DNA from: Nitrospirota bacterium
Lineage (GTDB): Bacteria; Nitrospirota; Nitrospiria; 2-01-FULL-66-17
NCBI GenBank assembly: GCA_049325295.1
Contig: JBMOMD010000033.1
Span: 11,588-75,587 of the forward strand
DNA length: 64,000 nt
Reading direction: 5' to 3'
A model generated the notes under the pieces. It worked only from the letters and a program-made list of their open reading frames with translations, made no database searches and was not told the origin of the DNA. The translations under genes and the position numbers were made by a program. This document shows positions 1-19,571 of the stretch, piece after piece. How positions within the stretch are numbered: position 1 is the first letter of the stretch; every line of letters starts with the position of its first letter.

Positions 1-10
1 CATCAAGAAA

Positions 11-496
11 ATGGTATTCCCATCCGAGATCCTGCCGATCGTGAAAGTAGCGGCTGCGGTCGTCACTCATCTGATCGGGTTGGCGCTTCTACTCTGCCTA
101 TTGGGGGTTGTCGGGGATGGGATCTCGTGGCGGGTTGCGCTGATCGTGCCGTATCTGATCACTATCGTGTTCTTCGCATTGGGGATCTCGTGGGCGCTGT
201 CTGCGGTGAATGTCTTCGTGCGTGATATCGGGCAGGTGATTGGTGTCTTCGTCAACATTTGGTTCTTCTTGACGCCGATCGTTTATAGCCAAACGCTTGT
301 TCCGAATCCGCTGCAAGGTTTGTATGCTCTCAATCCGATGATATACGCCGTGGACGGATACCGATCCGCCATCCTGGGGACGGGAGCCGTTGACGTCAAT
401 GGGGTTGCCTATCTGGGGCTGCTGGGGCTGGCTGCATTCGCAATCGGGGGAGTGGTCTTCAAGAGGCTAAAGCCACAGTTTGTGGACGTTCTATAA
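11..496 (+). CDS. ABC-2 type polysaccharide exporter permease (Wzm/TagG-like), 5'-truncated at window edge
   Basis: Hydrophobic multi-TM translation; C-terminal 'LNPMIYAVDGYRSAILG' ABC-2 permease signature; immediately upstream of a Wzt-like ATPase. Confidence 0.75.
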   Translation: MVFPSEILPIVKVAAAVVTHLIGLALLLCLLGVVGDGISWRVALIVPYLITIVFFALGISWALSAVNVFVRDIGQVIGVFVNIWFFLTPIVYSQTLVPNPLQGLYALNPMIYAVDGYRSAILGTGAVDVNGVAYLGLLGLAAFAIGGVVFKRLKPQFVDVL

Positions 497-501
497 CGGG
501 T

Positions 502-1722
502 ATGCCTAAAGCGCTGGACGTTCAAGATCTCAGAAAGGTCTATCGGCTCTATCGTTCGCCGAAAGATCGCCTGCTGGAGCTTATCAGCCTGAAAGGTGGT
601 GGCCATCACAGGGAGTTTCCCGCCCTCGACGGGGCGTCATTCACTCTCGATCGAGGCGAAACCCTCGGAGTCATCGGACGAAATGGAAGCGGGAAGAGCA
701 CGTTGTTGAAGATTTTATGCGGCGTCACCCGCCCGACAAGTGGGACGGTTGAGGTGAGCGGACGGGTGGCTTCGTTGCTTGAATTGGGCGCCGGGTTTCA
801 CCCTGAATTCAGTGGGCGCGACAATGTGTATATGAATGGCTCGCTGATGGGGTTCAATAAGTCCGCGATGGACCGCCGACTCCCTGAAATCGAAGCGTTT
901 GCCGAGATCGGAGAGTTTATCGACCAACCGGTGAAGCGGTACTCCAGTGGCATGTTCGTTCGCCTGGCGTTCTCCGCCGCCATTAGCGTGGAGCCGGACA
1001 TTCTGATCATCGACGAGGCTTTGGGTGTTGGAGACCTCGGATTTCAGTTGAAATGCATTGAGAAACTCAAGGCGTTTCAACGGGAGGGACGCACGATCAT
1101 TTTGGTGACGCACCAGTTCCAAGCGTTGCGGAACTTCTGCACGCGCGTCCTTTGGTTGGATCAAGGAAAGATTCGGGGCGACGGTGATGTGATTACGGTG
1201 ACCGACGCATACCGAGATTTCATGAGTTGGGGCCAAGGTGCGGGGCAAGAAGCCGCGACGGAGGACGAGGACTCCGGAGGCTCCGTCTTGTCGATAAGTA
1301 GCGTGGATATCTTGGATAGGAACGTTCGCAAGGCAGAGGCGATCGAGTTCGGCGCTCCATTCTCGGTTGCGGTTTCCTATCGGCTGCATAAGCCATATGA
1401 GGGCCTCGTTGGGGGTGTGGCTATCGTGGGTAGAGAGGGAGTTACGGTCTGCGGCCTCACAACGAAGCGTGATGGTATTTCGCTCCCATCGGTGGCGGGG
1501 TCTTATACGCTGAACGTTTCCTTTCCTGAGCCCAAATTGCTTCCAGGAGCGTATCGAATCCGAGTCGTATTTCTCGAAAGTTCCGGGGTTGGTCGCATCG
1601 CCGTACAATACGATGCTGCTTCATTCACGGTGCGATCAACGGGGTACAAAGCGGAGGGTTTGTATTTACTTGCGCATCATTGGACCGTGAATGCTCTCTC
1701 CGACGCTGACGTGAAGAGGTGA
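502..1722 (+). CDS. ABC transporter ATP-binding protein, Wzt/TagH-like, with C-terminal ~150-aa extension (putative glycan-cap binding domain)
   Basis: Walker A 'GRNGSGKST', ABC signature 'YSSGMFVRLAFS', Walker B 'ILIIDEAL'; 406 aa versus ~250 for a bare NBD. Confidence 0.85.
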   Translation: MPKALDVQDLRKVYRLYRSPKDRLLELISLKGGGHHREFPALDGASFTLDRGETLGVIGRNGSGKSTLLKILCGVTRPTSGTVEVSGRVASLLELGAGFHPEFSGRDNVYMNGSLMGFNKSAMDRRLPEIEAFAEIGEFIDQPVKRYSSGMFVRLAFSAAISVEPDILIIDEALGVGDLGFQLKCIEKLKAFQREGRTIILVTHQFQALRNFCTRVLWLDQGKIRGDGDVITVTDAYRDFMSWGQGAGQEAATEDEDSGGSVLSISSVDILDRNVRKAEAIEFGAPFSVAVSYRLHKPYEGLVGGVAIVGREGVTVCGLTTKRDGISLPSVAGSYTLNVSFPEPKLLPGAYRIRVVFLESSGVGRIAVQYDAASFTVRSTGYKAEGLYLLAHHWTVNALSDADVKR

Positions 1723-1798
1723 CATGTCTAGCGGCGTTATTCCAGGGCGATCCGAGCGTGCCCCACGGAGAGCGGGATGATCGGGACTGCGTGGGGTC

Positions 1799-4618
1799 AT
1801 GAGGGGTGTGGTGGACGCTGAGAACTCGCCGCGAGCCGTGTGTATTCTCGGCATGCACCGCAGCGGCACGTCGGTGGTGTCGCGGGCCGTGAATCTGCTC
1901 GGTGCCTACATCGGCGAGGAGCGACAGTTGTTGCCTCCGGCGCCCGACAACCAAGAAGGGGTGTTCGAACGGCGCGATGTAGTCGAGTTCCATGACCGGC
2001 TGCTGTCGCGGCTTTTACGGCAGTGGCATTCGGTCGGGCTGCTGCCGGATGAGTGGGAGGGTCGCCCGGAGATTCGACCGTTCCGGGAGGAGCTCAGGAA
2101 GCTGGTCGTGACGCAGTTCGGGAAACACCCGTTGTGGGCGTGGAAGGATCCTCGGACGACCTTGCTGCTCCCGCTCTGGAAGGATGTGTTGGCCGAGTTG
2201 GGCATCTTGTTGTCCTGCGTGTACGTGGTGCGCAATCCGCTCGACGTCGCGCGGTCGCTCAAGAAACGCGACGGCTTTTCGTTCGAAAAATCGTGGGCCA
2301 TGTGGTTGACGGCGAATCTGTCCGCGCTGGATGCGGTTCACGATGTTCCGACCGTGTTCGTGTCGTACGACCGCCTGTTGAGCGATTGGGAGCCGGAGTT
2401 GCGGCGCTGTGCAACGGCGCTCGGGATTTCGTGGCCTGCCGACGACACGAGCATTCGCGAGGGCCTGCAGGGCTTTCTTCGCCCGGAGCTGCGGCACAGT
2501 GCGTCCCAGGCTGTCGAGTTATCGTCCGAACGCGCCCCTGACGGCGTCATTGAACTGTACCGGCTGCTGTGTGATGCCGCCAACGACGCGAAGCCGTTTT
2601 TGGATCCAGGGGTTCGCGCTGAGGTCGCCCGTGTTCGTCGGGGATTCTGCGATGCAGCGGGATTTTTTCGTCATGACATCGAGCGGCTGCTGGGGGCGGT
2701 GCGCGGACTTGAGCGGCAGGTCGAAAAACTTACCGTCGCGGCGAAGGAGCGAGAGGATGAGTTCAACCGCATCCATTATAAGTTCGCACGGCATCTCCTA
2801 ATAAAGTACCAGCGGGTGCGGGACATTCTGTGTCCCCTCCAATCCCGTCGACGCGCGGCTTACAGTTGGCTGGACATGCAGGCCAGGAAGATTATCGAGC
2901 ACGGCCCAGTGAATCTCCTCTACATGAAGTACTGGCCCTACCGGTTTTGGATCGCCAAGAACGAGCCGAAGGCCGCCCGGTTCCCGGCGATGCGGGCGGA
3001 GGCCAATGCCTGGTCATATCGGCCGCTGGTCAGCCTGGTGACGCCGGTGTTCAATCCCACGCGTTATGCCCTGACACGCTGTCTCGAGTCCGTGGCCAAT
3101 CAGCTCTACGACCGCTGGGAGCTGTGTATCGTCGACGGGAGATCAGATCAGCCGTACGTAAGGGAGATCATCGAGGAGTTCGCGCGCAAGGACCCAAGAT
3201 TCAAATTCGCACGGCTGGAATCGAATCGCGGGATCGCCGGCAACGCGAACGAGGCATTGCGGCTGGCGTCAGGAGAGTTTGTAGGGTTTCTGGACCACGA
3301 CGATACGCTCGCGCCCTTTGCGTTGTACGAAGTCGTGAAGGTGCTCAATCAGGGCGCGCGCGCGGACTTCATCTACTCCGATGAAGACAAGGTGCCGGCC
3401 ACCGGCGCAAGGCGATATGCCCCCGAGTTCAAGTCGGGGTGGGCGCCAGACACGTTCCTGTCCTACAACTACCTGTGCCACTTTGCGGTGGTGAGGAAGC
3501 GGATACTGGATGATCTGGGCGGGTTTCGCGAGGGGTACGACGGAGCGCAGGATTACGATCTGCTGTTGCGCGTCGTCGAGAAGACACAGGCGATTCGGCA
3601 CATTCCCAAGGTACTGTATCACTGGCGGGCCGCAGCCGAGTCGACTGCGGCCGGGGTGAAGCTGAAGCCGTATGCCGTCTCAGCCGCAAAGAAGGCCATC
3701 GGGGAATATTTAACTCGCCGCGGCCTGGACGCGGAGGTCATGGACGGCGACGCGCTGGGAAGTTACCGCGTCAAGTATCGCGTGCGGCCGGGTCAGCGCG
3801 TCAGCATCATCGTGCCCACCAGAGACAAGGTGCATCTGCTGGAACGTTGCGTGTCGTCCATCCTCGCCAAGACGAGTCACGAGGCCCTCACGATCCTGAT
3901 CGTCGACAACGGGAGTCGGGAGCCGGAGACGTTGGCGTACTTTGACCGCATTAAGGATCACGCCAAGGTCCGGGTGGAGCGGTACGACGAGCCCTTCAAT
4001 TTTTCCGCCATCAATAACTTTGCGGTTCGCGGCACGGACTCGGACTATCTGGTTTTTCTGAACAATGACACCGAGGTGATCAGCCCCGAGTGGCTCGACG
4101 CCATGTTGGAGTTCGCGCAGCGCGATGACGTGGGCGCGGTCGGCGCCAAGCTGTACTACCCTGATGACACCATCCAGCACGCCGGGACCATCGTAGGCTA
4201 TTGGGGCGTGGCGGACCACGCGCACAAGCATTATCCCCGGTCGGCCCGCGGGTACATGGGACGGATCAATATCATTCAGAATCTGAGCGCCGTCACGGCC
4301 GCGTGTATGATGATGCGCCGAAAGGTGTTCGACGAAGTGGGCGGGTACGACGAGGCGTTCTCGCATTCGTTCAACGACGTGGATCTCTGCCTGAGAATTC
4401 GGGACAAGGGCTATCTTGTCGTCTATACCCCGTACGCCGAGCTCTATCACCATGAATCCGTGAGTCGGGGCCATGACGAAAAACCGGAGGAGCGAGCGCG
4501 GCTGGACCGGGAGATCGCATTGATGAAGACGCGCTGGAAGCGCGTCTTCGATGCCGGCGATCCGTATTACAGTCCAAATCTCACGCTCGAGAAGACGGAT
4601 TTTAGCTTCAGAATTTAA
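1799..4618 (+). CDS. Tri-domain glycan biosynthesis enzyme: N-terminal sulfotransferase + two GT2 glycosyltransferase domains
   Basis: aa 15-155: 'ILGMHRSGTSV' (5'-PSB) and 'VVRNPLDVARS' (3'-PB) sulfotransferase motifs. Two GT2 cores ('VSLVTPVFNP..FLDHDD' and 'VSIIVPTRDK..IVDNGS..FLNNDT'). Confidence 0.8.
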   Translation: MRGVVDAENSPRAVCILGMHRSGTSVVSRAVNLLGAYIGEERQLLPPAPDNQEGVFERRDVVEFHDRLLSRLLRQWHSVGLLPDEWEGRPEIRPFREELRKLVVTQFGKHPLWAWKDPRTTLLLPLWKDVLAELGILLSCVYVVRNPLDVARSLKKRDGFSFEKSWAMWLTANLSALDAVHDVPTVFVSYDRLLSDWEPELRRCATALGISWPADDTSIREGLQGFLRPELRHSASQAVELSSERAPDGVIELYRLLCDAANDAKPFLDPGVRAEVARVRRGFCDAAGFFRHDIERLLGAVRGLERQVEKLTVAAKEREDEFNRIHYKFARHLLIKYQRVRDILCPLQSRRRAAYSWLDMQARKIIEHGPVNLLYMKYWPYRFWIAKNEPKAARFPAMRAEANAWSYRPLVSLVTPVFNPTRYALTRCLESVANQLYDRWELCIVDGRSDQPYVREIIEEFARKDPRFKFARLESNRGIAGNANEALRLASGEFVGFLDHDDTLAPFALYEVVKVLNQGARADFIYSDEDKVPATGARRYAPEFKSGWAPDTFLSYNYLCHFAVVRKRILDDLGGFREGYDGAQDYDLLLRVVEKTQAIRHIPKVLYHWRAAAESTAAGVKLKPYAVSAAKKAIGEYLTRRGLDAEVMDGDALGSYRVKYRVRPGQRVSIIVPTRDKVHLLERCVSSILAKTSHEALTILIVDNGSREPETLAYFDRIKDHAKVRVERYDEPFNFSAINNFAVRGTDSDYLVFLNNDTEVISPEWLDAMLEFAQRDDVGAVGAKLYYPDDTIQHAGTIVGYWGVADHAHKHYPRSARGYMGRINIIQNLSAVTAACMMMRRKVFDEVGGYDEAFSHSFNDVDLCLRIRDKGYLVVYTPYAELYHHESVSRGHDEKPEERARLDREIALMKTRWKRVFDAGDPYYSPNLTLEKTDFSFRI

Positions 4619-4658
4619 GAGGGTGGCCGTAGCCGAGCAGGCTATTCAGGGCGGGCGC

Positions 4659-5711
4659 GTGTCCGTCGCTCTGGCCACGTACAACGGCGGCTGGTACCTC
4701 GGGAAGCAACTTGAGAGCCTGGCGTCGCAAACGCTCAAGCCTCGCGAGCTGGTGGTCTGCGACGACGGTTCAACCGACGACACGGTCGCGATTCTTAAGG
4801 CATTTGCGTCCCGCGCCGCGTTCCCGGTACGGGTTCACGTCAATGACGTGAATCTCGGTTCCACCAAAAATTTCGAGCAGGCGATCCAGCGTTGCCAAGG
4901 CGATTTCATCGCGTTGTGCGATCAGGACGACGTGTGGCGTCCCCACAAGCTGGAGCGGGTGGTCGCGGCGTTCGGGGCTTCCCCGGATCTTGACGCCGTA
5001 TTCAGCGACGGCGAGGTCGTGGATGAGGACCTGCGGCCGTTGGGCTACGGACTATGGGATGCGGCGGGGTTTGGTGCGGTGCGTCGCCAGCGTATGGCGC
5101 AGGGGCGCGCGCTCGAGGTCTTGCTGAAAAACGACGTGGTCACCGGCGCCACCCTGGTGTTTCGCCGAGCGTTTCGCGACACGATCGTCCCGATTCCAGA
5201 GGTTTGGGTGCACGACGCGTGGATCGCGCTGGTGATCGTGGCGCTCGGAGGAAAACTGGGGGCCATCGACGACCCGCTGATTCTGTATCGCAAGCATCGC
5301 CGGCAACAAGTCGGTGTGGTCTCGCGTTCGGATGACGGCGCGCTGGCGTGGGTCTGGTCGTCGTTGGGAGACGTGCGGCGTGACGTGGACGGCTACGTGG
5401 CGACCGGCGACGAGCTATACGCCTTGTTCGCGGAGCGGTACCAGGCCGCGGGCGAGCGGCTGGCGGCTCTCGGCGACCGCGTGGATCCGCGCGCGGTCGC
5501 GGGATGCCGGGCCAAGGTCGCGCACTTTCGCGCCCGGATCGCGATGACGGCCCATCCCTGGTTGAGGTTTCCATTGGTTCTCGGCGAGTTGGCGCGCCTT
5601 CGCTATTTCCGGTATTCGAGCGGGGCCAAGAGTCTGGCCAGAGATCTGGTCCGCGCGGCCATGTTTTGGACTCCGCCGGGTCATCGGAGTCCTCGGGTGT
5701 CGGTGTGGTGA
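4659..5711 (+). CDS. Family 2 glycosyltransferase (track ORF starts 4551; GTG 4659 likely true start)
   Basis: 'VSVALATYNGGWYL..LVVCDDGSTDDT..ALCDQDDVW' GT2 fold; ORF 4551 overlaps upstream gene so an internal GTG start is favoured. Confidence 0.7.
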   Translation: MSVALATYNGGWYLGKQLESLASQTLKPRELVVCDDGSTDDTVAILKAFASRAAFPVRVHVNDVNLGSTKNFEQAIQRCQGDFIALCDQDDVWRPHKLERVVAAFGASPDLDAVFSDGEVVDEDLRPLGYGLWDAAGFGAVRRQRMAQGRALEVLLKNDVVTGATLVFRRAFRDTIVPIPEVWVHDAWIALVIVALGGKLGAIDDPLILYRKHRRQQVGVVSRSDDGALAWVWSSLGDVRRDVDGYVATGDELYALFAERYQAAGERLAALGDRVDPRAVAGCRAKVAHFRARIAMTAHPWLRFPLVLGELARLRYFRYSSGAKSLARDLVRAAMFWTPPGHRSPRVSVW

Positions 5712-6676
5712 CCCCTCACACGAACATCCCCTTGGTGGTGATCATCGTGCTGAACTGGAACGGGCGCGACGACACCGTGGCGTGCGTCGAGTCGGTCCGC
5801 GGGTTGCGGTATCGCAAGGCCAATGTGTTGATCGTGGACAACGGGTCAACGGATGATTCGGTCGCGACGTTCTCTCGGCGATTTCCGGATATCCGCTGCA
5901 TTCAGACCGGTGAGAATCTTGGGTTCGCCGAGGGCAACAACGTGGGCATGCGCGCGGCATTGGCGGAGGGCGCGGACTACGTGTTCCTGCTGAACAATGA
6001 TGCGACGATCGAACCGGATGCGCTCGATCGGTTGGTCGATGCGGCGGAATCACACCCCGATGTCGGCATCGTCGGGCCCAAAATCTATTACGCGGCTGAG
6101 CCCAAGCGAATCTGGTACGCGGGCGGCACGATTAGTCCGCTGGGACGGCTTGGCCACGAGGGGTGGAACCGGATCGACGACGGGCAATGGGACACGCCGC
6201 GCGAGACCGGGTACGTGACGGGCTGCGCCTTCCTGGTCAAGCGTGCGGTGTTGGAGAAGGCCGGCTTGTTCGCGCCGGAGTACTTTCTGCTGTTTGAAGA
6301 AGCCGACCTCTGCGTGCGCGGGCGGCGCGAGGGTTTTCGGTCTTGGGTGGAGCCTCGGGCAACCGTGTATCACAAGGTCTCGGCGTCATTCGGCGGTTTT
6401 TCGCCGCGGTATTACTACTACTTTCTGCGAAACTACCTGCTCTTTCAGCGCCGTCACGTGATTCCGGTGAAGGGATGGGCGGCGCGGCTCGCCATCGCGT
6501 TCTATGTGGTTCGCGTGTTCGCATATTTGACCCTGACGCCGCATCGCGGCGGCTGGCGGAACCTGGCCGCGGCGTGGGAGGGAGTCGGGGATTACCTGCG
6601 CGGGCGATGGTTCGAGCGCGGCGTACACCGTCGCCTGGGCGAGGACGCAGCATGGCGGGTATCAGCTCGAATATGA
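5705..6676 (+). CDS. Family 2 glycosyltransferase (rhamnosyltransferase-like); start GTG 5705/5708 overlapping upstream stop
   Basis: '[53 protein letters not shown]' GT2 motifs; GTGA overlap with preceding gene. Confidence 0.75.
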
Positions 6677-7236
6677 GAGAAAGGGGAGCCTCAGTGGGAA
6701 AGACAGCGAGTGGTTTTACGATCTGGTTCACCGGCCTGTCCGGCGCGGGCAAGACCACGGTCGCTCATCGATTGGCGGAGATGTTGCAGCAGCGCATGGG
6801 CCGCGAGGTCGAGATCCTGGACGGGGACGTGGTGCGCACGCACCTGAGCAAGGGGCTTGGGTTCAGCCGCGAGGATCGCGACACCAATATCCGGCGCATC
6901 GGCTGGGTCTGCCACGTGTTGACCAAACACGGGGTGCCAAACATCGCGGCCGCGATTTCCCCGTACCGCGGGGTGCGCGATGAGGTGCGCAAGATGGTGG
7001 GGCGGTTCGTGGAGGTCTACGCCGACTGTCCGCTCGATGTGTGCGAGCAGCGCGACGTGAAGGGGCTGTATCGCAAGGCGCGGGCCGGCGAGCTCAAGCA
7101 ATTCACGGGGATCGACGATCCGTACGAAGCGCCGCTTAATCCCGAGGTCACGCTGCACACGGACCGGGAGAGCGTGGAGCAGAGCGCGATGAAGGTCGTT
7201 CGGAAGCTGGAGGAGATGGGCTGGTTGGGGCGGTAG
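6673..7236 (+). CDS. cysC: Adenylyl-sulfate (APS) kinase, stand-alone
   Basis: '[15 protein letters not shown]' P-loop, '[10 protein letters not shown]', 'SPYRGVRDE' typical of CysC; ATG 6673 overlaps upstream TGA (ATGA). Alternative starts 6652 / 6694. Confidence 0.85.
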
Positions 7237-7383: not shown

Positions 7384-7680
7384 TTACGCGGCGCTGCGGG
7401 ACCAGGTCTGAGCCCTGGTGATGAGTTCCTCCCGGAAACGCGGCCAGTCGTGTAGAGTGGCAGGGTCGAAATCAGCGCCGTTCGGCCACGCTATTGTCCG
7501 GACTTCGTGATCAATGCGGACCTGCTGAAACAGGGACGAATCTCGTAACGGCCCGTAGAGTTCTCCCGCCAGCACCGGTTCAAAGTCGATTACCTGGACA
7601 CTGCGGTCGTCGAACGTGAGTCGCAGGGTATATGCGCCCACGATCTCAACGTGTGTCACACTGTGAATTGGGTGTTCCAT
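7384..7680 (-). CDS. DUF2442-family small protein (putative antitoxin partner of DUF4160)
   Basis: ~98-aa translation from 'MEHPIHSVTHVEIVG..' matches DUF2442 pattern; directly downstream of a DUF4160 gene on the same strand. Confidence 0.65.
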   Translation of the reverse strand: MEHPIHSVTHVEIVGAYTLRLTFDDRSVQVIDFEPVLAGELYGPLRDSSLFQQVRIDHEVRTIAWPNGADFDPATLHDWPRFREELITRAQTWSRSAA

Positions 7681-7691
7681 GTCTCGTCTCC

Positions 7692-7961
7692 TCACGAGAG
7701 CGGTCTGATCGGCACCGCTTTCCGACCATCTTGCAAGAGGCGCCAATCGTTGAGCAACTCGGCCTGGTGAAGTTCTGCCCAGGCTTCGACCAGGCGCTGC
7801 TGGCGTGTCGGGAGCGCCCCCGCAATCTGTGCAACCGGCTCGATACTGTAGATGCCGACCTTGTCCTGATAGTACGCGTGGAAATGGGGAAGGTGATGCG
7901 GTCCACCGATTTCCACGTACATACGAATGATGATCCCAAAAAATCGGCTGATCTCGGGCAT
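7692..7961 (-). CDS. DUF4160-family small protein (putative toxin-like partner)
   Basis: '[31 protein letters not shown]' is the characteristic DUF4160 N-terminus; start trimmed from track ORF 8036 to the conserved Met. Confidence 0.65.
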
Positions 7962-8046
7962 GAGACCGTACCAGTGGTGGCAGCCTACCAGGAGGAATAG
8001 GACGGTGTCAAACGACGGGCGATCTGGTACGCCCACGCCACTCCGT

Positions 8047-8223
8047 GATTTCCAAGGCCTCTACCGCAAGGCGCGGGCCGGCGAGCTCAAGCAATTCACG
8101 GGGATCGACGATCCCTACGAAGCCCCGCTTGACCCTGAAGTTACACTGCACACGGACCGGGAGAGCGTGGAGCAGAGCGCGTTGAAGGTCGTGCGGAAGC
8201 TGGAAGAGCTGGGGTGGTGCTGA
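8047..8223 (+). pseudogene. Diverged duplicate of the 3' end of cysC (APS kinase C-terminal 57 codons), not a complete gene
   Basis: Encodes '[53 protein letters not shown]', near-identical to cysC residues at 7063-7236 with many synonymous differences. Confidence 0.7.
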
Positions 8224-8355
8224 CGCGTCGCGCATCTGGTTGTGTTCATCGACTCACGGTATGCGATACGAGTAAGAAGAAAATGAACATGGTCATAGTC
8301 GGCGCCTGAATCCGTCGCGTTGACATGGTGTAGCCAATAGGATACACTTCCCTCC

Positions 8356-8646
8356 GTGATGGAAATTCGCAAGACCGACGTGTTCGCCAAATGGCTCGAC
8401 CGGCTGCGCGACATTCGGGCCAGGGCGCGCGTTCAGGCCAGGATCGAGCGGCTGGCGTTTGGAAACGCGGGGGACGTCAAGCCGGTTGGCGAAGGCGTCT
8501 CGGAGCTGCGGATCAACTACGGGCCGGGATACCGGGTGTACTTTACCAAGCGTGGGCGCGACGTGGTAATTCTCCTGGCGGGAGGGGACAAGAGCACTCA
8601 AGCCGGCGATGTCGAACTCGCCTTGCGCCTGGCACGCAACCTATAG
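8356..8646 (+). CDS. Type II toxin, RelE/ParE superfamily (HigB-like addiction-module killer protein)
   Basis: 96 aa; 'FAKWLDRLRD..RARVQARIERL..GDVKPVGEGVSELRINYGPGYRVYF' typical of HigB-like toxins; antitoxin immediately downstream. Confidence 0.8.
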   Translation: MMEIRKTDVFAKWLDRLRDIRARARVQARIERLAFGNAGDVKPVGEGVSELRINYGPGYRVYFTKRGRDVVILLAGGDKSTQAGDVELALRLARNL

Positions 8647-8655
8647 GAGTGTACA

Positions 8656-8955
8656 ATGCGAAAAACTACAACCAGTCGCTACGATGTCGCCGAGCACCTC
8701 CGAACTCCCAAGGAGATGGCCGCCTACTTTGAAGCGTGCCTCGAAGAGGCCAACGGCGACGCGGCGTTTATTGCCAAGGCTCTGGGGGACATTGCCCGTG
8801 CGAGGGGCATGGCACAGGTCGCTCGCGATGCGGGCCTTTCCCGAGAAAGCCTTTACAAGGCGCTCTCCGGTCGACGCAGCCCGGGCTTCGACACGATCCT
8901 CAAGGTCATCGCAGCGCTGGGATTGAAGTTGCACGCGGAAGCGATTCGGAACTAA
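8656..8955 (+). CDS. HigA-family antitoxin (XRE-type HTH addiction-module antidote protein)
   Basis: 99 aa; 'YDVAEHLRTPKEMAAYFEACLEE..AFIAKALGDIARARGMAQVARDAGLSRESLYKALS' matches HigA-type antidote proteins. Confidence 0.8.
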   Translation: MRKTTTSRYDVAEHLRTPKEMAAYFEACLEEANGDAAFIAKALGDIARARGMAQVARDAGLSRESLYKALSGRRSPGFDTILKVIAALGLKLHAEAIRN

Positions 8956-9365: not shown

Positions 9366-9977
9366 TCAGTTCAACCCCGGGTCCCGCGGCATATTCGCGT
9401 ATTTGGCGTGGCGCGGGCCCAGCGAACGCATCAACTCCGGCCACACCACTTTGGGGTCCGCGTCGAAAATCCATTTGGAGTCGGCGGGCACCACGATCCA
9501 GGAGTCCGTTTCCATTTCCGTGTCGAGTTGGCCCTGCGACCAGCCGGCGTATCCGGCGTAGCCGCGAAACGCGGCTTCCTGCGGCATGGGCGGGATCTCG
9601 GCGGCGCCCGGCGCGGCTTCGCGCTCCGCGGTCGGGTCGAGCAGGGATTTGAGGGTCGGGAGGTCCGTGCCGAGGTACACGTCGCCGAACACGTGGTGGG
9701 ACGAGGGCGGCGTCAACTCGGAGCGGATCAGAATCAACAGGTGATCGGGCTGCACTGGGCCGCCGGAATAGATGACGTCGTCGCGCTCGGTGCCGGCGAG
9801 CTGGTGCACGGCTTCGGTGAGCACGAGTTCGGTCGGTCGGTTGATCACCAACCCCATGCTGCCGCGATCGTTGTGCTCGCAGAGCAGGATCACCGCCTGC
9901 CGAAAATTCGGGTCGTACATGCCGGGACCCGCGATGAGAAAGGTCCCTTTGTCGAGCGTGGGGGTCACGAAATCCAT
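9366..9977 (-). CDS. YqgE/AlgH family protein (UPF0301)
   Basis: 'LIAGPGMYDPNFRQAVILLCEHNDRGSMGLVINRP' signature; start trimmed to the conserved Met. Confidence 0.8.
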   Translation of the reverse strand: MDFVTPTLDKGTFLIAGPGMYDPNFRQAVILLCEHNDRGSMGLVINRPTELVLTEAVHQLAGTERDDVIYSGGPVQPDHLLILIRSELTPPSSHHVFGDVYLGTDLPTLKSLLDPTAEREAAPGAAEIPPMPQEAAFRGYAGYAGWSQGQLDTEMETDSWIVVPADSKWIFDADPKVVWPELMRSLGPRHAKYANMPRDPGLN

Positions 9978-10255
9978 CGTATAACCGGCTCGATGGAAAG
10001 TCCAGCGCGGCCGTAACGGCGCGCGCGTGGTCGGGGCGCGATTTCTTGACAAGGGGTACCCCCTGGGCTAGAGTCAGCTCCGCACGGCGAGTATAGTAAC
10101 TATAGTCGGCGGATCGCCGCGCCGTGCGCCGCACCATCAGTCCCGGGTCGGGGAAGACCAACAAGGATGACTGGGAACCATAGGGACGTGATGCGCAGCC
10201 TCCGTATGGCCCGACTGGGCGTCCAAGCCGTCGGTTCACAACGCGGGATGGTCGC

Positions 10256-11938
10256 GTGACCCCGCGCTGGGTCAACTCGTACGAGCCCGGGATCTCCCCC
10301 GCGCTCCGGTATCCCGCCGTTCCCCTGCATCAACTGCTCGCCGCCACGGCCGCGAAGTATCCGGAGAATCCCGCGTTGGATTTCTACGGGCGTCGCGTGA
10401 CCTACCGGGAGTTGGACCGCGCCGCGAACCGGTTCGCCAACGCCCTCGCCGGCTTGGGCGTTCGCAAGGGGGATCGGGTGGCGGTGATGTTGCCCAACGC
10501 GCCGCAGGCCGTGATCGCGTATTACGGCGCGCTCAAGCTCGGGGCGGTGGTGGTCGAGGTCAATCCGCTGTACGTTGAACGGGAAATCGAACAGCAGGTG
10601 CGCGACGCCGAGGCGCGCGTGCTGGTGGCGCTCGATCTGTTCTATCCGCGGATCGAGCCCATCCGGGCGCGCGCGGGGCTGGAGGCCGTGATCATCACCT
10701 CGGTGCGGGACGCGTTGCCGTGGCATCTGGCCTTGTTGTACCCGATCAAGGCGTGGCGCGAAGGCACGCGCGTGTCCGTGCCCAACACTCCGCCCGTGTA
10801 CGAGTACCGATCGCTCGTGGCCGCGGCGTCGGAGACGGCCCCGGCCGTCGAGGTGGCGCCGGACGATCTGGCGCTCCTGCAATACACCGGCGGCACCACC
10901 GGGATTCCCAAGGGCGTGATGCTCACCCACCGGAACCTGGTCGCCAATACCCTGCAATGCCGCGCGTGGATGCCGTCCTTGCGCGACGGCGCGGAGGTCT
11001 TTCTGGGCGTGGTCCCGTTTTTCCACGTGTACGGGATGACCGCCTGCATGAATCTGGCGATTTACACCGGCGGGTTGATCGTGTTGCTCCCGCGCTTCGG
11101 GACCAAGGACGTGTTGCGCGCCATCGTGAAGTCGCGCGCCACGATCTTCATGGGCGTGCAGGCGATGTACGTGGCGATCAATAATTTCCCGGACGTGCGC
11201 CGATACGATCTCTCGACCATTCGCATCTGCATCAGCGGCGCGGGTCCGTTGCACGTGGAGGTCCAGGAGCGGTTCGAGGCGTTGACCGGCGGCAAGGTGG
11301 TGGAAGGGTTCGGGTTGAGCGAGGCCTCGCCGGTCACGCACGTCAATCCGATCTTCGGGCGACGGATCAAGGGCACCATCGGGTTGCCGTTGCCGGACAC
11401 CGAGGCTAAAGTAATGGACGTGGAGTCGGGAACGCGCGAGATGCCCCTGGGCGAGGCCGGTGAATTGGTGATCCGCGGGCCTCAAGTCATGAAGGGGTAT
11501 TGGCGGCGTGCCGATGAAACCGCCGGGGTCTTGCGCAACGGCTGGCTGCACACCGGGGACATCGCGACCGTTGACGCCGACGGGTATTTCACGATCGTGG
11601 ACCGCAAGAAGGACATGATCAAGACCAAGGGCGAAAACGTCTATCCGCGCGACATCGAGGAAGTCCTGTTCCGGCATCCCAAGATCAAGGACGCGGTCGT
11701 GGTCGGGGTGCCGGAAGAGTTCATGGGCGAGATGATCAAGGCGTACGTGGTGCTCCGGGACGGCGAAACCGCGACCGAAAACGAGATCGTCGAATATTGC
11801 GGACGGGAATTGGCCAAATTCAAGGTGCCCAAAGCCGTGGAATTCCGTCAGGAACTGCCGCGGACCATCGTGGGGAAAGTGCTGCGCCGCGTCCTGTTGG
11901 ACGAGGAGCTGAAGAAACGTCATGCCATGGCAGGATGA
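10256..11938 (+). CDS. fadD: Long-chain fatty acid-CoA ligase
   Basis: AMP-binding motif 'LQYTGGTTGIPKGVMLTHRNL', 'GYGMTA', C-terminal 'GKVLRR'. Confidence 0.85.
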   Translation: MTPRWVNSYEPGISPALRYPAVPLHQLLAATAAKYPENPALDFYGRRVTYRELDRAANRFANALAGLGVRKGDRVAVMLPNAPQAVIAYYGALKLGAVVVEVNPLYVEREIEQQVRDAEARVLVALDLFYPRIEPIRARAGLEAVIITSVRDALPWHLALLYPIKAWREGTRVSVPNTPPVYEYRSLVAAASETAPAVEVAPDDLALLQYTGGTTGIPKGVMLTHRNLVANTLQCRAWMPSLRDGAEVFLGVVPFFHVYGMTACMNLAIYTGGLIVLLPRFGTKDVLRAIVKSRATIFMGVQAMYVAINNFPDVRRYDLSTIRICISGAGPLHVEVQERFEALTGGKVVEGFGLSEASPVTHVNPIFGRRIKGTIGLPLPDTEAKVMDVESGTREMPLGEAGELVIRGPQVMKGYWRRADETAGVLRNGWLHTGDIATVDADGYFTIVDRKKDMIKTKGENVYPRDIEEVLFRHPKIKDAVVVGVPEEFMGEMIKAYVVLRDGETATENEIVEYCGRELAKFKVPKAVEFRQELPRTIVGKVLRRVLLDEELKKRHAMAG

Positions 11939-11977
11939 AGTGGATACGAGAAACCACAGGTGGAGTCGGGAGCGCGT

Positions 11978-13168
11978 ATGAAAGACGTGGTGATCGTTGA
12001 CGGAGTTCGCACCCCGATCGGGAACTTCGGCGGGGCCTTGAAGGACGTGACCGCCCATGCCATGGGCGCGGCCGTGGTCAAGGCGGTGGTGGAGCGCACC
12101 AAAATCGCGCCCGACGCGGTGGACGAGGTGATTTTCGGCTGCGTGGGCCAACACTCCGACGCGACCAACATGGCCCGCAACATCGCGCTCTACGCGGGCC
12201 TGCCGATCACGGTGCCGGCGTACACGGTCCAGCGCAATTGCTCCTCCGGGTTGCAGTCGCTGGTCAACGCGTACCAGAACATCCAGGCCGGCGACGCGGA
12301 CGTGCAGATCGTGGGCGGCACCGAGAGCATGAGCCAGGCCCCGTTCGTGTCGCGCGACATGCGGTGGGGCAAACGCCTCAAACACGGCTCGTTCATCGAC
12401 AGCATCTGGGAAGGGTTGACCGACGGGTTCTGCGGCCAGATCATGGGGTACACCGCGGAGACGTTGGCCGAGGAGTTCAAGATCGGCCGCGAAGAGCAGG
12501 ACAAGTTCGCCCTGCTCTCGCACAAGCGGGCGTTTCGCGCGGTGCGGGAGGGTAAGTTCAAGGACGAACTCATGACGGTGATGGTGCCCAAGAAGATGGC
12601 CGGCAAGGAGGTCACGCCCGAGCCGTTCGCGCAGGACGAAGGGCCGAACGCCGCGCTCACCGAACAGCAGCTCGCGCTCTATCCCACCGTGTTCAAGGAG
12701 GGCGGAACCGTCACCCCCGGCAACTCCTGTTCGCTCAACGACGGCGCCGCGGCCGCGCTCGTGATGTCGGCGGAGCGGGCCCGCGCGCTCGGGTACGAGC
12801 CGCTGGGATACATTCGGTCGTACGCGTTCGTCGGGGTCGAGCCGCAGCGCATGGGGATCGGGCCGGCCGAGGCGATTCCGATCGCGCTCAAGAAGGGCAA
12901 GCTGTCGCTGGCCGACATCCAACTGTTCGAGATCAACGAGGCGTTCGCGGCCCAATATCTGGCCGTGGAGCGCAAGTTGGGCCTGAATCGCGACATCGTG
13001 AACGTGAACGGCGGCGCGATCGCGTTGGGCCACCCGGTGGGCATGACCGGCACCCGGCTCGCGATCACGGTGCTCCGCGAGATGAAACGCCGGAACCTGA
13101 ATCTCGGGATCGCGAGCATGTGCGTGGGCGGGGGCATCGGCGCCGCCATGGTGCTGGAGAGAAAATAA
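11978..13168 (+). CDS. Acetyl-CoA acetyltransferase (thiolase)
   Basis: 'VVIVDGVRTPIG', active-site 'NRNCSSGLQ', C-terminal 'NVNGGAIALGHPVGMTG'. Confidence 0.9.
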   Translation: MKDVVIVDGVRTPIGNFGGALKDVTAHAMGAAVVKAVVERTKIAPDAVDEVIFGCVGQHSDATNMARNIALYAGLPITVPAYTVQRNCSSGLQSLVNAYQNIQAGDADVQIVGGTESMSQAPFVSRDMRWGKRLKHGSFIDSIWEGLTDGFCGQIMGYTAETLAEEFKIGREEQDKFALLSHKRAFRAVREGKFKDELMTVMVPKKMAGKEVTPEPFAQDEGPNAALTEQQLALYPTVFKEGGTVTPGNSCSLNDGAAAALVMSAERARALGYEPLGYIRSYAFVGVEPQRMGIGPAEAIPIALKKGKLSLADIQLFEINEAFAAQYLAVERKLGLNRDIVNVNGGAIALGHPVGMTGTRLAITVLREMKRRNLNLGIASMCVGGGIGAAMVLERK

Positions 13169-13242
13169 GATCGAAACGGCGTGGGCCGGTTTGCCGGTTT
13201 GCCGGTGCGCCGGTTTGCGTGCAACTCAGATGAGGAGGCGAT

Positions 13243-14475
13243 ATGTACATTTATAAGGCGGCGGTGATCGGCGCGGGGACCATGGGGGCGCAAATTGCGC
13301 AGACGATCTCGTATTCGGGGTTGCCCGTGATCCTGAAGGACATCAAACCCGATTCGGTCGAGCGCGGGTTGTCGATGGTCCGCAAGATCTATCAGGGCCG
13401 CGTGGACAAGGGGAAAATGACCGCGCACGAGATGGAGCAGAAAATGGCGCTCGTCTCGGGGGCCGTGGACTATTCCGGGTTCAGCGACGTGGACCTGGTC
13501 ATCGAAGCGGTGTTCGAGGACATGGCCATCAAGCGGCGCGTGTTCGCGGAGGCCGAAGCCGCCTGTCCGGAGAACACGATCCTCGCCACCAACACGTCGT
13601 CGTTGCCCATTTCCGCGCTCGCGGCGGGCCGCAAACACCCGGAAAAGGTGGTGGGCATCCATTTCTTCAACCCGGCGCACGTGATGAAGCTGGTCGAAGT
13701 CATCCCCGGGATGGCCACGTCGTCGGAAACCGTGGACGACGCGGTCGCGTTCGCGGAGAGTCTGCGCAAGATTCCGGTGCGCGTGCAGGAGTGCGCGGGG
13801 TTTCTGGTGAACCGCCTGTTGATGCCGTATCTGAACGAAGCGGCCATGGCGCTGCAGGAGATCGAGAAGCCCGAGGCCGCGCTCGACGAAGCCAAACGCC
13901 TGGACGCGGCCTTGGTCGCGTTGGGCATGCCCATGGGGCCGTTCGCGCTGACCGACATGATCGGCCTCGACGTGGCGGCCAAGGTCGCGGACGTGTTATA
14001 CGATTCGTTCGGGCCCCGGATGACGCCCGCCGCGATGCTGGCGGCGATGGTGAAGGCCGGGCGAATGGGCGCCAAGTCCGGCGCGGGCATCTTCGCGTAC
14101 GATGAGCGACACGACGCCGGCGCGTTGGCGCGGCTCCTCGCGGACGTGCAAAAGCAGACCGGGATTCGCGGCACCGAGTGCACGCCCAACCGCGTGTTGT
14201 TGCCGCTGATCAACGAAGCCGTGATCTGCCTCCAGGAGGGCGTGGCCACGGCCGCGGACATCGACGTGGCCATGATGGCGGGGACCGGGTTCCCGCAGGA
14301 CAAGGGCGGACCGCTGCACTACGCCGACCAACTGGGCCTGGACGTGGTGCTCAACGAAATGGAGCGATTGACCCGCGCCGTCGGCCCGCGGTTCTGGCCG
14401 GCCCCGATGCTCAAGCGCATGGTGGCCGCCGGATTCTTGGGCGTCAAAGCCAAGCGCGGATTCTTTAGTTACTGA
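13243..14475 (+). CDS. 3-hydroxyacyl-CoA dehydrogenase
   Basis: NAD-binding 'AAVIGAGTMGAQIAQ'; HADH C-terminal domains. Confidence 0.85.
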   Translation: MYIYKAAVIGAGTMGAQIAQTISYSGLPVILKDIKPDSVERGLSMVRKIYQGRVDKGKMTAHEMEQKMALVSGAVDYSGFSDVDLVIEAVFEDMAIKRRVFAEAEAACPENTILATNTSSLPISALAAGRKHPEKVVGIHFFNPAHVMKLVEVIPGMATSSETVDDAVAFAESLRKIPVRVQECAGFLVNRLLMPYLNEAAMALQEIEKPEAALDEAKRLDAALVALGMPMGPFALTDMIGLDVAAKVADVLYDSFGPRMTPAAMLAAMVKAGRMGAKSGAGIFAYDERHDAGALARLLADVQKQTGIRGTECTPNRVLLPLINEAVICLQEGVATAADIDVAMMAGTGFPQDKGGPLHYADQLGLDVVLNEMERLTRAVGPRFWPAPMLKRMVAAGFLGVKAKRGFFSY

Positions 14476-14495
14476 GGGACTCAAGGAGGAGTCGC

Positions 14496-15278
14496 ATGCC
14501 ACGGCAGTATCTGACGGTGACCACCGAGGATCGCGTCGCGACGGTGACGTTCAGCAACCCGCCGGCCAACGCGCTGAGCAGTCCGGTGATGACGGAAATC
14601 GAAGAGGTGTTCCGCGAACTGGCCGCCGATCAGGCGGTGAAGGCCGTGGTGTTCACGGGGGCGGGGCAACTCTTCATTTCCGGCGCGGACATCCAGGAAG
14701 TGGCGGGGATCGCGGACGCGGCGAAAGGCCGCGAACTCACGGCGCGCGGCCAGCGGATCTTCGATCAGATCGAACGGATGGACAAGCCGGTCATCGCCGC
14801 GATCAACGGCCTCTTTTGCCTGGGCGGGGGGATGGAGTTGGCCATGGCGTGCCACCTGCGCGTGGCGGGCGAGCGCGTGCGCATGGGACAGCCTGAAATC
14901 GACCTCGGCATCATTCCCGGGTTCGGCGGGACCCAGCGACTGGTGCGTCTGGTGGGACAGGCCAAGGCGATCGAGCTGATCCTCACCGGGGACAAAATCC
15001 CCGGGACCGAGGCCAAGGCGATCGGCTTGGTGAACAAGGTGGTGCCGGACGGCGAGGTGGTCAAGCAGGCGCAGGGGCTCGCCAAAAAAATCGCGGGCAA
15101 GAGCGCGGTGGCGGTCCGCGCCGCGATGCGCGCGATCCGCGAGGGCATCGGGCGACCCCTGGCCGACGGCCAGGCGCTCGAGTCCGAGTTGTTCGGCCAG
15201 GTGTGCGAGAGCGCGGACAAACGCGAGGGCGTGACCGCGTTCCTCGAAAAACGGCAGCCCAAGTTTCAAGACCGGTGA
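14496..15278 (+). CDS. Enoyl-CoA hydratase (crotonase family)
   Basis: 'AINGLFCLGGGMELAMACHLRVA' crotonase signature. Confidence 0.85.
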   Translation: MPRQYLTVTTEDRVATVTFSNPPANALSSPVMTEIEEVFRELAADQAVKAVVFTGAGQLFISGADIQEVAGIADAAKGRELTARGQRIFDQIERMDKPVIAAINGLFCLGGGMELAMACHLRVAGERVRMGQPEIDLGIIPGFGGTQRLVRLVGQAKAIELILTGDKIPGTEAKAIGLVNKVVPDGEVVKQAQGLAKKIAGKSAVAVRAAMRAIREGIGRPLADGQALESELFGQVCESADKREGVTAFLEKRQPKFQDR

Positions 15279-18337: not shown

Positions 18338-18354
18338 GCGGGACGGCGAATCGG

Positions 18355-19434: not shown

Positions 19435-19571
19435 TTGGCCCGAACAGTAACGTAGGGCATGGCCGATGTCAATCGTCGCCGGACCGTTTCGTCTTGATTT
19501 TGCGCCGGGGTTCTCGTATAAACGTCAGCACACTCCGGCGCCGTATCCTCGCGCGCCGCGATGGGAGAGGA

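What the first reader, a model, noticed from the sequence alone, without database searches (positions are those of the whole stretch)
1799..4618. Single polypeptide fusing a sulfotransferase to two GT2 polymerase-type domains
Residues 15-155 carry both canonical PAPS-binding motifs (5'-PSB 'HRSGTS' at ~1856-1873; 3'-PB 'RNPLDVARS' at ~2231-2257), followed by two complete GT2 domains with DxD-type motifs 'FLDHDD' (~3290) and 'FLNNDT' (~4060). In E. coli O8/O9a the terminator WbdD (kinase/methyltransferase) is a separate protein from the polymerase WbdA. Here a modifying activity is fused to the serotype-type GTs, which suggests sulfation as the chain-terminating cap.
Basis: partly seen in the sequence, partly recalled or inferred. 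Interest (0 to 1): 0.7.

Follow-up and report, generated by a model that had tools for sequence, protein, structure and literature searches.

The report
Sulfotransferase fused to glycan polymerase
One 939-residue protein in a Wzm/Wzt surface-polysaccharide export locus joins a sulfotransferase, through a long helix, to two sugar-adding domains. It most likely caps finished chains with sulfate; capping by a fused domain is known with other chemical groups, but I found no demonstration of it with sulfate.

Summary
Window 1799-4618(+) is one intact 939-aa ORF, and all four quoted motifs sit at the stated coordinates.

The gene sits in wzm - wzt (with a carbohydrate-binding module) - ST/GT2/GT2 - GT2 - GT2 - cysC, an ABC-transporter-dependent glycan locus with its own PAPS supply.

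The fusion itself is not new. WsaE, WbbB and K. pneumoniae O7 ORF6 are all fused terminator-polymerases. Homologues of this same GT2-GT2 module carry a methyltransferase, or methyltransferase plus sulfotransferase, in the same N-terminal position.

Sulfate as the chain-terminating cap is therefore a well-supported inference (about 0.55) but it is not shown. Sulfation of every repeat unit is the main rival.

The sulfotransferase family is very large (about 20,900 cluster representatives) and has no characterised close relative. A 2019 census that may already predict this chemistry could not be read.

Verdict: new variant of a known kind, moderate interest.

The parts
11..496 (+). 3' part of wzm (ABC-2 permease). 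The gene runs off the window's 5' end.
   Evidence: Pfam ABC2_membrane E 1.4e-11; 62% identical to the Wzm of relative L001
502..1722 (+). wzt: ABC ATPase (NBD aa 42-174) with a C-terminal Wzt_C carbohydrate-binding module (aa 261-388 = nt 1282-1665)
   Evidence: Pfam ABC_tran 4.8e-22 and Wzt_C 4.7e-16. Best PDB match is full-length Aquifex Wzt 8dku/7k2t over aa 6-357.
1799..4618 (+). The finding: a single 939-aa ST - helical linker - GT2a - GT2b protein
1799..2584 (+). Sulfotransferase domain (aa 1-262). 5'-PSB loop HRSGTS at nt 1856-1873; 3'-PB RNPLDVARS at nt 2231-2257; invariant E57; near-invariant K116-D-P-R119.
2606..2830 (+). Long helix aa 270-344 (about 110 A if straight), a candidate coiled-coil spacer. 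It is followed by a small helical bundle, aa 350-404 (nt 2846-3010).
   Evidence: AF2 secondary structure. Heptad a/d score 0.74 against 0.41 +/- 0.09 in shuffles, reached by 1 of 1000. The linker is the longest heptad-compatible segment in nearly all homologues. Its length varies from 90 to 192 aa among 25 homologues.
3011..3778 (+). GT2a (GT-A fold) with DGRSD and DHDD (aa 499-502) motifs and YSDEDK
   Evidence: Pfam Glycos_transf_2; conserved columns; pLDDT above 90
3779..4615 (+). GT2b (GT-A fold) with VDNGS and an NNDT (aa 755-758) DxD variant
   Evidence: Pfam Glyco_tranf_2_3. N755, D757 and Q793-H794-x-G796 are invariant. The tandem aligns to the dual-GT-A polymerases PmHS2 and K4CP at E about 1e-20.
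4623..5711 (+). GT2c: single-domain GT2. Start refined to GTG 4623, with AAGAGG upstream.
   Evidence: Pfam; tblastn to the L001 orthologue and start-codon scan
5705..6676 (+). GT2d: single-domain GT2. Its start overlaps the GT2c stop. Weak rhamnosyltransferase-subfamily similarity.
6652..7236 (+). cysC, adenylyl-sulfate (APS) kinase: the PAPS supply for the sulfotransferase(s)
   Evidence: Pfam APS_kinase 7.4e-62 and NCBIfam PRK00889 at 281 bits, above its cutoff; start refined

Best explanation
The protein is a fused terminator - spacer - polymerase for an ABC-transporter-dependent, lipid-linked surface glycan of O-antigen type. The host is a Nitrospirota-like bacterium. Proposed mechanism: (1) GT2a and GT2b, helped by the two neighbouring single GT2 enzymes, extend the chain at the cytoplasmic face of the membrane. 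(2) The N-terminal sulfotransferase uses PAPS, made with the operon's own CysC, to put a sulfate ester on the non-reducing terminal sugar. That blocks further extension. (3) The helical linker holds the sulfotransferase away from the polymerase sites, so that only chains of some minimum length are capped. (4) The carbohydrate-binding module of Wzt recognises the capped end and Wzm/Wzt exports the chain. Shown here: the three folds, the conserved catalytic motifs, the operon, and the interchange of methyltransferase and sulfotransferase heads on the same polymerase module. Inferred: that sulfation is terminal only, that it stops growth, that the CBM reads it, and that the helix acts as a ruler.
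Against: There is no biochemical or structural evidence for a terminal sulfate in any member. The helix is short (about 75 residues), its hydrophobic periodicity peaks at 3.6 rather than 3.5 residues, and no oligomer was modelled. Some related loci have a Wzt without a CBM (L004, L087), and one has no transporter within 10 kb (L002). In the closest relative, two Sulfotransfer_2 genes and a standalone methyltransferase lie just upstream of wzm, so sulfation may be extensive and another enzyme could be the terminator. The Wzt CBM is barely conserved between the window and L001 although their ST domains are 68% identical. The Pfam sulfotransferase score is only just above its cutoff.
Confidence: 0.55

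Rival explanations
1. Decoration, not termination. The fused sulfotransferase sulfates an internal position of every (or many) repeat units as the chain grows, giving a sulfated polyanionic O-antigen or exopolysaccharide. Chain length and export are then set by something else, for example a methyl cap from the standalone methyltransferase, or transporter/polymerase stoichiometry as in K. pneumoniae O2a.
For: The locus carries its own cysC. In the closest relative there are two further sulfotransferases and a methyltransferase upstream, which suggests heavy PAPS use. Some related ST-GT2-GT2 loci have a Wzt without a CBM. Terminal modifications that do not control length are known, such as the K. 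pneumoniae O1 pyruvate (PMC11231755). The linker is short and not proven to be a coiled coil.
Against: A per-repeat decorating enzyme has no obvious need to be held about 100 A from the polymerase by a long helix of variable length. The head position is interchangeable with methyltransferase domains, and in WsaE the domain in the same position and gene order is the capping enzyme; direct homology of the methyltransferase-headed homologues to WsaE was not tested. The association with CBM-bearing Wzt is strong, 21 of 30.
Confidence: 0.3
2. The N-terminal domain is a catalytically dead or repurposed sulfotransferase-fold module. It would serve only as a scaffold, oligomerisation head or nucleotide/PAP sensor for the dual-GT2 polymerase.
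For: The Pfam score is marginal (28.0 against 27). No sequence-level match to any solved sulfotransferase was found with the single sequence.
Against: The 5'-PSB loop, the 3'-PB motif and E57 are invariant across 60 relatives from many phyla. That pattern indicates purifying selection on catalysis. cysC is co-encoded. The profile aligns the RNPxDxAxS motif to the functional motif of cytosolic sulfotransferases.
Confidence: 0.05
3. The locus makes a glycan other than LPS O-antigen, such as a capsule-like polymer, a protein-linked glycan or a secreted sulfated exopolysaccharide. The protein's enzymology would be the same as in the best explanation.
For: The same ST heads occur in Firmicutes (Paenibacillus, Alicyclobacillus, Cohnella), which have no LPS. 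WsaE itself makes an S-layer glycan. No ligase or lipid A-core genes are seen in the window.
Against: Nothing in the data argues against it. This rival concerns only the final acceptor, not the mechanism of the fused protein.
Confidence: 0.1

Closest known systems
WsaE of Geobacillus stearothermophilus NRS 2004/3a (S-layer glycan)
   Same: Same gene order (wzm-wzt-wsaE) and same domain order: an N-terminal small-group transferase that caps the chain, followed by two glycosyltransferase domains that build the repeat. A Wzt is proposed to bind the capped end (PMC2943079). Homologues of the window's GT2-GT2 module with an N-terminal methyltransferase exist (P0030, P0091).
   Different: The head domain is a SAM methyltransferase (2-O-methyl cap), not a sulfotransferase.
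K. pneumoniae O12 WbbB and O7 ORF6 (single-protein terminator - coiled coil - polymerase)
   Same: Terminator at the N-terminus, a coiled-coil spacer, and two polymerase GT modules at the C-terminus (GT2 modules in O7 ORF6). Both work with a Wzm/Wzt transporter (PMC11231755).
   Different: Their caps are beta-Kdo (WbbB, a GT99 glycosyltransferase) and methyl-phosphate (ORF6, methyltransferase plus kinase). Their coiled coils are described as extended, whereas the helix here is only about 75 residues and is unproven as a coiled coil.
E. coli O9a/O8 WbdD + WbdA
   Same: The same logic: a capping enzyme on a coiled-coil ruler, a multi-GT polymerase, and a Wzt CBM that reads the cap (PMC11231755).
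   Different: The terminator and polymerase are separate proteins. The GTs are mannosyltransferases of another family, and the cap is methyl or methyl-phosphate.
LpsS of Sinorhizobium meliloti (LPS sulfotransferase)
   Same: It is a precedent that bacterial LPS can be sulfated by a PAPS-dependent enzyme (PMC12445080, citing Cronan & Keating 2004).
Unexplained sulfotransferase-domain gene after wzt in the Aeromonas salmonicida O-antigen locus
   Same: A sulfotransferase-domain ORF lies directly downstream of a 438-aa Wzt in an ABC-transporter-dependent O-antigen cluster, next to a WbbB homologue. The authors note that no sulfate is known in the repeat-unit structure (PMC4483657). In my reading a single terminal sulfate per chain could have gone unnoticed, which would reconcile the two.
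   Different: It is a small standalone protein (216 aa), and its relationship to this ST family was not tested.

Membership tests
PAPS-dependent sulfotransferase superfamily (Pfam Sulfotransfer_3-like) | 5'-phosphosulfate-binding P-loop (xRSGTS/T) | tested here: met
   HRSGTS at aa 20-25; invariant in 25 and in 60 relatives
PAPS-dependent sulfotransferase superfamily (Pfam Sulfotransfer_3-like) | 3'-phosphate-binding motif (RNPxDxxxS) | tested here: met
   RNPLDVARS at aa 145-153. R145 and S153 are invariant in all three alignments; P147 is invariant and at least 90% conserved. The profile aligns it to IVRNPKDTAVS of SULT7A1.
PAPS-dependent sulfotransferase superfamily (Pfam Sulfotransfer_3-like) | Sulfotransferase alpha/beta fold | tested here: met
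PAPS-dependent sulfotransferase superfamily (Pfam Sulfotransfer_3-like) | Score above the curated family threshold | tested here: met
   PF13469 scores 28.0 bits against a cutoff of 27, which is only marginal. Sulfotransfer_1 is below its cutoff.
PAPS-dependent sulfotransferase superfamily (Pfam Sulfotransfer_3-like) | Catalytic base near the PSB loop | tested here: inconclusive
   E57 is invariant in 60 relatives, but it was not superposed on the catalytic Glu/His of a solved enzyme
PAPS-dependent sulfotransferase superfamily (Pfam Sulfotransfer_3-like) | PAPS-dependent sulfate transfer | not testable with these tools
   Requires an enzyme assay
GT2 (GT-A fold) glycosyltransferases, two tandem modules | Pfam GT2 domain above threshold, twice | tested here: met
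   PF00535 at 164 bits with 2 stretches (412-573, and 667-885 via PF13641)
GT2 (GT-A fold) glycosyltransferases, two tandem modules | DxD-type metal/nucleotide motif in each module | tested here: met
   DHDD at aa 499-502. NNDT at aa 755-758 is a variant with N755 and D757 invariant.
GT2 (GT-A fold) glycosyltransferases, two tandem modules | Dual GT-A arrangement like bifunctional polymerases | tested here: met
   Foldseek aligns about 550 columns to PmHS2 (8vh8) and K4CP (2z86) at E about 1e-20. This is fold-level only, at 13-17% identity.
Fused terminator - coiled coil - polymerase proteins of ABC-transporter-dependent glycan assembly (WsaE / WbbB / KpO7 ORF6 type) | Encoded in a wzm/wzt locus | tested here: met
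   wzm and wzt lie immediately upstream. This is conserved in L085, L001, L003 and L005.
Fused terminator - coiled coil - polymerase proteins of ABC-transporter-dependent glycan assembly (WsaE / WbbB / KpO7 ORF6 type) | Wzt carries a carbohydrate-binding module | tested here: met
   Wzt_C E 4.7e-16. 21 of 30 Wzt next to ST genes have it, but it is absent in L004 and L087.
Fused terminator - coiled coil - polymerase proteins of ABC-transporter-dependent glycan assembly (WsaE / WbbB / KpO7 ORF6 type) | Non-GT or capping domain N-terminal, polymerase GT modules C-terminal | tested here: met
   ST 1-262, GT2a 405-660, GT2b 661-939
Fused terminator - coiled coil - polymerase proteins of ABC-transporter-dependent glycan assembly (WsaE / WbbB / KpO7 ORF6 type) | Extended coiled-coil spacer between the two | tested here: inconclusive
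   There is a single 75-residue helix. The heptad score is beaten by 1 of 1000 shuffles, but periodicity peaks at 3.6, not 3.5. No oligomer model was made. The linker length varies widely among relatives.
Fused terminator - coiled coil - polymerase proteins of ABC-transporter-dependent glycan assembly (WsaE / WbbB / KpO7 ORF6 type) | Modification confined to the non-reducing terminus and required for chain-length control or export | not testable with these tools
   Needs glycan structure determination and mutants
Fused terminator - coiled coil - polymerase proteins of ABC-transporter-dependent glycan assembly (WsaE / WbbB / KpO7 ORF6 type) | Sequence homology to WsaE or KpO7 ORF6 | not tested
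Only methyltransferase-headed homologues of the GT2-GT2 module were examined.
Stf0 / LpsS-type sulfotransferases | Closest structural and sequence match is Stf0 | tested here: not met

The most novel reading that the evidence does not exclude
Sulfate esters are a genuine and very widespread additional chemistry for terminating ABC-transporter-exported glycans, alongside methyl, methyl-phosphate and Kdo. The writer would be an uncharacterised sulfotransferase family of thousands of members across many phyla, Gram-positives included. That family is fused interchangeably to GT2, GT1/GT4 and RgpF polymerase modules, and in some Paenibacillus to the Wzt ATPase itself. Writer, spacer and reader (wzm-wzt-ST-linker) would be exchanged between strains as one cassette, with a recombination junction at the linker/GT2a boundary. 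That would change cap and chain length without changing the polymer backbone.
Probability: 0.4. Interest if true: 0.65.

Novelty: new variant of a known kind. Interest (0 to 1): 0.5.

Why it matters
Chain-terminating caps set the length of O-antigens and related glycans and act as the export signal read by the transporter. The cap chemistries mentioned in the papers I could read are methyl, methyl-phosphate, Kdo, and a pyruvate that does not control length.

A sulfate cap would add a charged, easily overlooked terminal epitope. One sulfate per chain could be missed by NMR of the repeat unit, which may explain unexplained sulfotransferase genes such as the one in the Aeromonas salmonicida locus.

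It would also define a new ligand class for Wzt carbohydrate-binding modules. And it would assign a function to a very large unannotated sulfotransferase family, whose members are currently labelled only 'glycosyltransferase'. Cultured carriers exist in which this could be tested directly: Paenibacillus, Alicyclobacillus, Dyella, Lamprocystis and Nitrosospira.

Tried and rejected
1. The exact-sequence look-up of the window protein found it is not on record, so context came from relatives instead.
3. tblastn with the window's Wzt CBM found no CBM in relatives because the module is too divergent. I replaced it with a Pfam scan of 30 Wzt proteins.
4. The hidden-frameshift (two genes) idea is rejected.
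5. P0001 looked N-terminally truncated (840 aa), but that is only a gene-call start choice; the ST domain is intact in the DNA.
6. My first shuffle control for heptads was biased by prolines, so I redid it on the helix itself. The helix is significantly amphipathic, but coiled coil and simple amphipathic helix cannot be told apart.
7. Literature: five searches combining sulfotransferase or sulfate with O-antigen, Wzt or terminator terms found no description of a sulfate cap. The JBC 2020 review and the key census (Mann, Kimber & Whitfield, Glycobiology 2019, doi 10.1093/glycob/cwz066) are not held. From memory that census 'predicted new chemistries', and it may already list sulfotransferase terminators. 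One guessed PMC id turned out to be an unrelated paper.
8. The AFDB Foldseek library was unavailable.
9. The context of the methyltransferase-headed homologue P0030 was uninformative because the contig is only 7 kb.
10. A GAG-like reading (heparosan or chondroitin synthase similarity plus a sulfotransferase) is rejected. The Foldseek match is generic for tandem GT-A domains at 13-17% identity.
Full report
**1. Observation**

Window 1799-4618(+) is a single 939-codon ORF with no internal stop. GC by codon position (0.63/0.42/0.77) is that of a real gene.

Pfam reports Sulfotransfer_3 over aa 14-213. By sequence this is marginal, at 28.0 bits against a cutoff of 27. It also reports two GT2 domains, at 412-573 and 667-885.

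More than 20 homologues align over 97-100% of the length at 33-67% identity. The closest relative's DNA aligns to residues 4-939 in one frame at 80%. The fusion is therefore real and not a frameshift artefact.

**2. Anatomy**

An AlphaFold model of aa 1-400 was built from 25 homologues (pLDDT 87). It shows an alpha/beta domain at aa 12-262, followed by one uninterrupted helix at aa 270-344 and a small helical bundle at aa 350-399.

- **Sequence.** No solved structure is within reach of the single sequence. A family profile hits only sulfotransferases, weakly, aligned on the 3'-phosphate-binding motif RNPxDxAxS.
- **Conservation.** Across 60 diverse ORFs carrying this domain, G18, H20-R-S-G-T-S25, G35, N51, G54, E57, R145 and S153 are invariant and K116-D-P-R119 nearly so. 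I read this as a catalytically active PAPS-dependent enzyme. E57 as the catalytic base is an inference.
- **Full-length model.** The model (pLDDT 85.5) has three confident globular domains. The long helix drops to pLDDT about 45 in the monomer.
- **GT tandem.** The tandem GT-A domains align as a pair to the bifunctional polymerases PmHS2 and K4CP at E about 1e-20, a fold-level similarity only.
- **Helix.** It has a heptad-like hydrophobic pattern: score 0.74 against 0.41 +/- 0.09 in shuffles, reached by 1 of 1000. Its periodicity peaks at 3.6 rather than 3.5 residues. A coiled coil is plausible but not shown.

**3. Locus**

Upstream are the 3' part of wzm (cut by the window edge) and wzt. Wzt has an ABC ATPase domain and a Wzt_C carbohydrate-binding module. 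Its best PDB match is full-length Aquifex Wzt.

Downstream, tightly packed or overlapping, are two single-domain GT2 genes (4623-5711 and 5705-6676) and cysC, APS kinase (6652-7236). The locus has lower GC (0.56-0.61) than the DNA that follows (0.64-0.70).

After cysC the locus ends. What follows is a duplicated cysC 3' fragment, small inserted genes, and then AlgH and fatty-acid beta-oxidation genes. The rest of the window is housekeeping.

**4. Relatives**

The closest relatives are Nitrospirota MAGs.

- **L085** (80% identity) is syntenic through both flanks. Upstream of wzm it shows a MarR-like regulator, a methyltransferase, two Sulfotransfer_2 genes and a radical-SAM gene.
- **L001** has wzm - wzt (Wzt_C) - unknown - ST/GT2/GT2 - GT2 - GT2 - cysC - three more GT genes.
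- **L003** has wzm - wzt (Wzt_C plus methyltransferase) - unknown - cysC - ST/GT2/GT2.
- **L004** has sat/cysC, wzm, a wzt without a CBM, and rml-type genes.
- **L002** has no transporter within 10 kb.

The ST domain family is very large:

- 20,867 cluster representatives match at E <= 1e-3 and 3,268 at E <= 1e-30, out of 1.84 billion. The domain is almost always N-terminal.
- At least 586 loci were found in species-representative genomes from many phyla, including Firmicutes.
- Of 60 ST ORFs, 26 are fused to GT2 modules, 7 to GT1/GT4, and single cases to RgpF or WbsX.
- Long ST proteins have Wzm nearby more often than short ones: 20 of 43 against 3 of 18, p = 0.04.
- Of 30 neighbouring Wzt, 21 have Wzt_C.
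- In many loci the ST gene begins within a few dozen bases of the wzt stop.

Homologues of this very GT2-GT2 module carry different heads:

| Proteins | Architecture |
|---|---|
| P0030, P0091 | methyltransferase - GT2 - GT2 |
| P0079, P0084 | methyltransferase - sulfotransferase - GT2 - GT2 |
| P0042, P0054 | sulfotransferase - long linker - GT2 - GT2 |

Linker length ranges from 90 to 192 aa among close homologues, and to roughly 500 aa in 1,300-aa members.

**5. Mosaic structure**

Against L085, the flanking housekeeping genes are 83-99% identical, CysC 92%, GT2a 88% and GT2b 94%. In contrast, Wzm is 68%, the Wzt NBD 73%, the Wzt CBM 58%, the ST domain 74%, the linker 55%, GT2c 58% and GT2d 45%. 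GT2d is 81-87% identical to L001 and L005 instead.

A sliding nucleotide-identity profile places the transitions at about nt 3000, about 4750 and about 6750. The first falls at the linker/GT2a domain boundary inside the gene. The block wzm-wzt-ST-linker has therefore been exchanged, or has diverged, separately from the polymerase core. That fits a functional export-plus-capping unit, although physical linkage alone could also produce it.

**6. Mechanism and rivals**

*Best explanation (0.55).* This is a fused terminator - spacer - polymerase. GT2a and GT2b, with GT2c and GT2d, build the chain. The ST domain uses PAPS, supplied through CysC, to sulfate the non-reducing terminus and stop growth. 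The helix spaces the two activities. The Wzt CBM reads the cap for export.

- Shown: the folds, the motifs, the operon and the head-domain modularity.
- Inferred: terminal specificity, termination, CBM recognition and the ruler function.

*Main rival (0.3).* The ST domain sulfates every repeat. This is supported by the extra sulfotransferases and the methyltransferase upstream in L085, and by related loci whose Wzt lacks a CBM.

*Minor rivals.* An inactive scaffold domain (0.05) is contradicted by the invariant catalytic motifs. A non-LPS destination for the glycan (0.1) would not change the enzymology.

**7. Comparison with what is known**

- **WsaE.** This is the closest described architecture: gene order wzm-wzt-wsaE, with an N-terminal capping methyltransferase and two rhamnosyltransferase domains (PMC2943079).
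- **K. pneumoniae O12 WbbB and O7 ORF6.** These are single proteins with an N-terminal terminator, a coiled coil and C-terminal polymerase GT modules. The coiled coil and a CBM-bearing Wzt are called hallmarks of capped systems (PMC11231755).
- **LpsS.** LPS sulfation has a precedent in LpsS, a standalone Stf0-family enzyme (PMC12445080). It is not related beyond the superfamily fold.
- **Aeromonas salmonicida.** An unexplained sulfotransferase-domain gene follows wzt in its O-antigen locus (PMC4483657).

The sulfotransferase head, and so a sulfate cap, is the new element.

**8. Novelty and caveats**

I found no open-access paper describing a sulfate terminator. The 2019 bioinformatic census of termination chemistries could not be read, and it may already predict this. 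I rate the finding a new variant of a known kind, with interest 0.5. A specialist would find it plausible rather than startling. It is widespread, uncharacterised and directly testable in cultured carriers.

Noticed in passing
window 7063-7225 and 8056-8218 (and 7384-8955): A 163-nt direct repeat (90% identical) duplicates the 3' end of cysC. It brackets an insertion of about 830 nt carrying two small minus-strand ORFs (7384-7746 and 7692-8036; by eye DUF2442-like and DUF4160-like). A Gp49/HigB-like toxin (8356-8646) and a probable HTH antitoxin (8656-8955) follow. The syntenic relative L085 goes straight from cysC to AlgH, so all of this is an insertion at the 3' edge of the glycan locus.
   Followed up: partly
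L021:15968-17764, L025:16018-17808, L033:15960-17753 (Paenibacillus spp.): The Wzt ATPase (about 598 aa) is itself fused to Sulfotransfer_1/3 and TPR domains instead of a Wzt_C module. This puts a sulfotransferase on the transporter, in loci that also encode a roughly 1,030-aa N-terminal-ST protein and CysC.
   Followed up: partly
L003:5869-7866: A 665-aa Wzt carries NBD + Wzt_C + a methyltransferase domain, next to cysC and an ST-GT2-GT2 gene.
   Followed up: no
L085:3153-6714 (region upstream of wzm, missing from the window): In the closest relative, a radical-SAM gene, two 237-aa Sulfotransfer_2 genes and a 224-aa methyltransferase precede the MarR-like regulator and wzm. The locus therefore encodes at least three sulfotransferases of two families.
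   Followed up: no
window 1-7236 versus L085: The locus is a recombination mosaic. GT2a/GT2b and cysC are 88-94% identical to L085. wzm, wzt, ST, linker, GT2c and GT2d are 45-74%, and GT2d is closer to L001 and L005 (81-87%). One junction lies at the linker/GT2a boundary inside the gene, near nt 3000.
   Followed up: yes
window 1-4500 versus 9500-19500: The glycan locus has lower GC (0.56-0.61) and lower GC3 (0.72-0.77) than the neighbouring housekeeping DNA (GC 0.64-0.70, GC3 0.80-0.90). This is typical of horizontally exchanged surface-glycan loci.
   Followed up: partly
window 57535-62439 (+): A 1,634-aa ORF with strong coding bias (GC3 0.83) has only a small multicopper-oxidase match at aa 201-304. 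The rest has no Pfam assignment.
   Followed up: no
L085:10001-12523 (protein P0001): The public gene call for the closest homologue starts about 96 codons too late and omits the PAPS-binding loop. The public record names the protein only 'glycosyltransferase' and its precomputed Pfam hits are GT2 families only. The full ST domain is present in frame upstream.
   Followed up: yes
Aeromonas salmonicida wb locus (literature, PMC4483657): A 216-aa sulfotransferase-domain ORF sits between wzt and a wbbB homologue. The authors could not explain it, because the known O-antigen repeat has no sulfate. A single terminal sulfate per chain would reconcile this.
   Followed up: no
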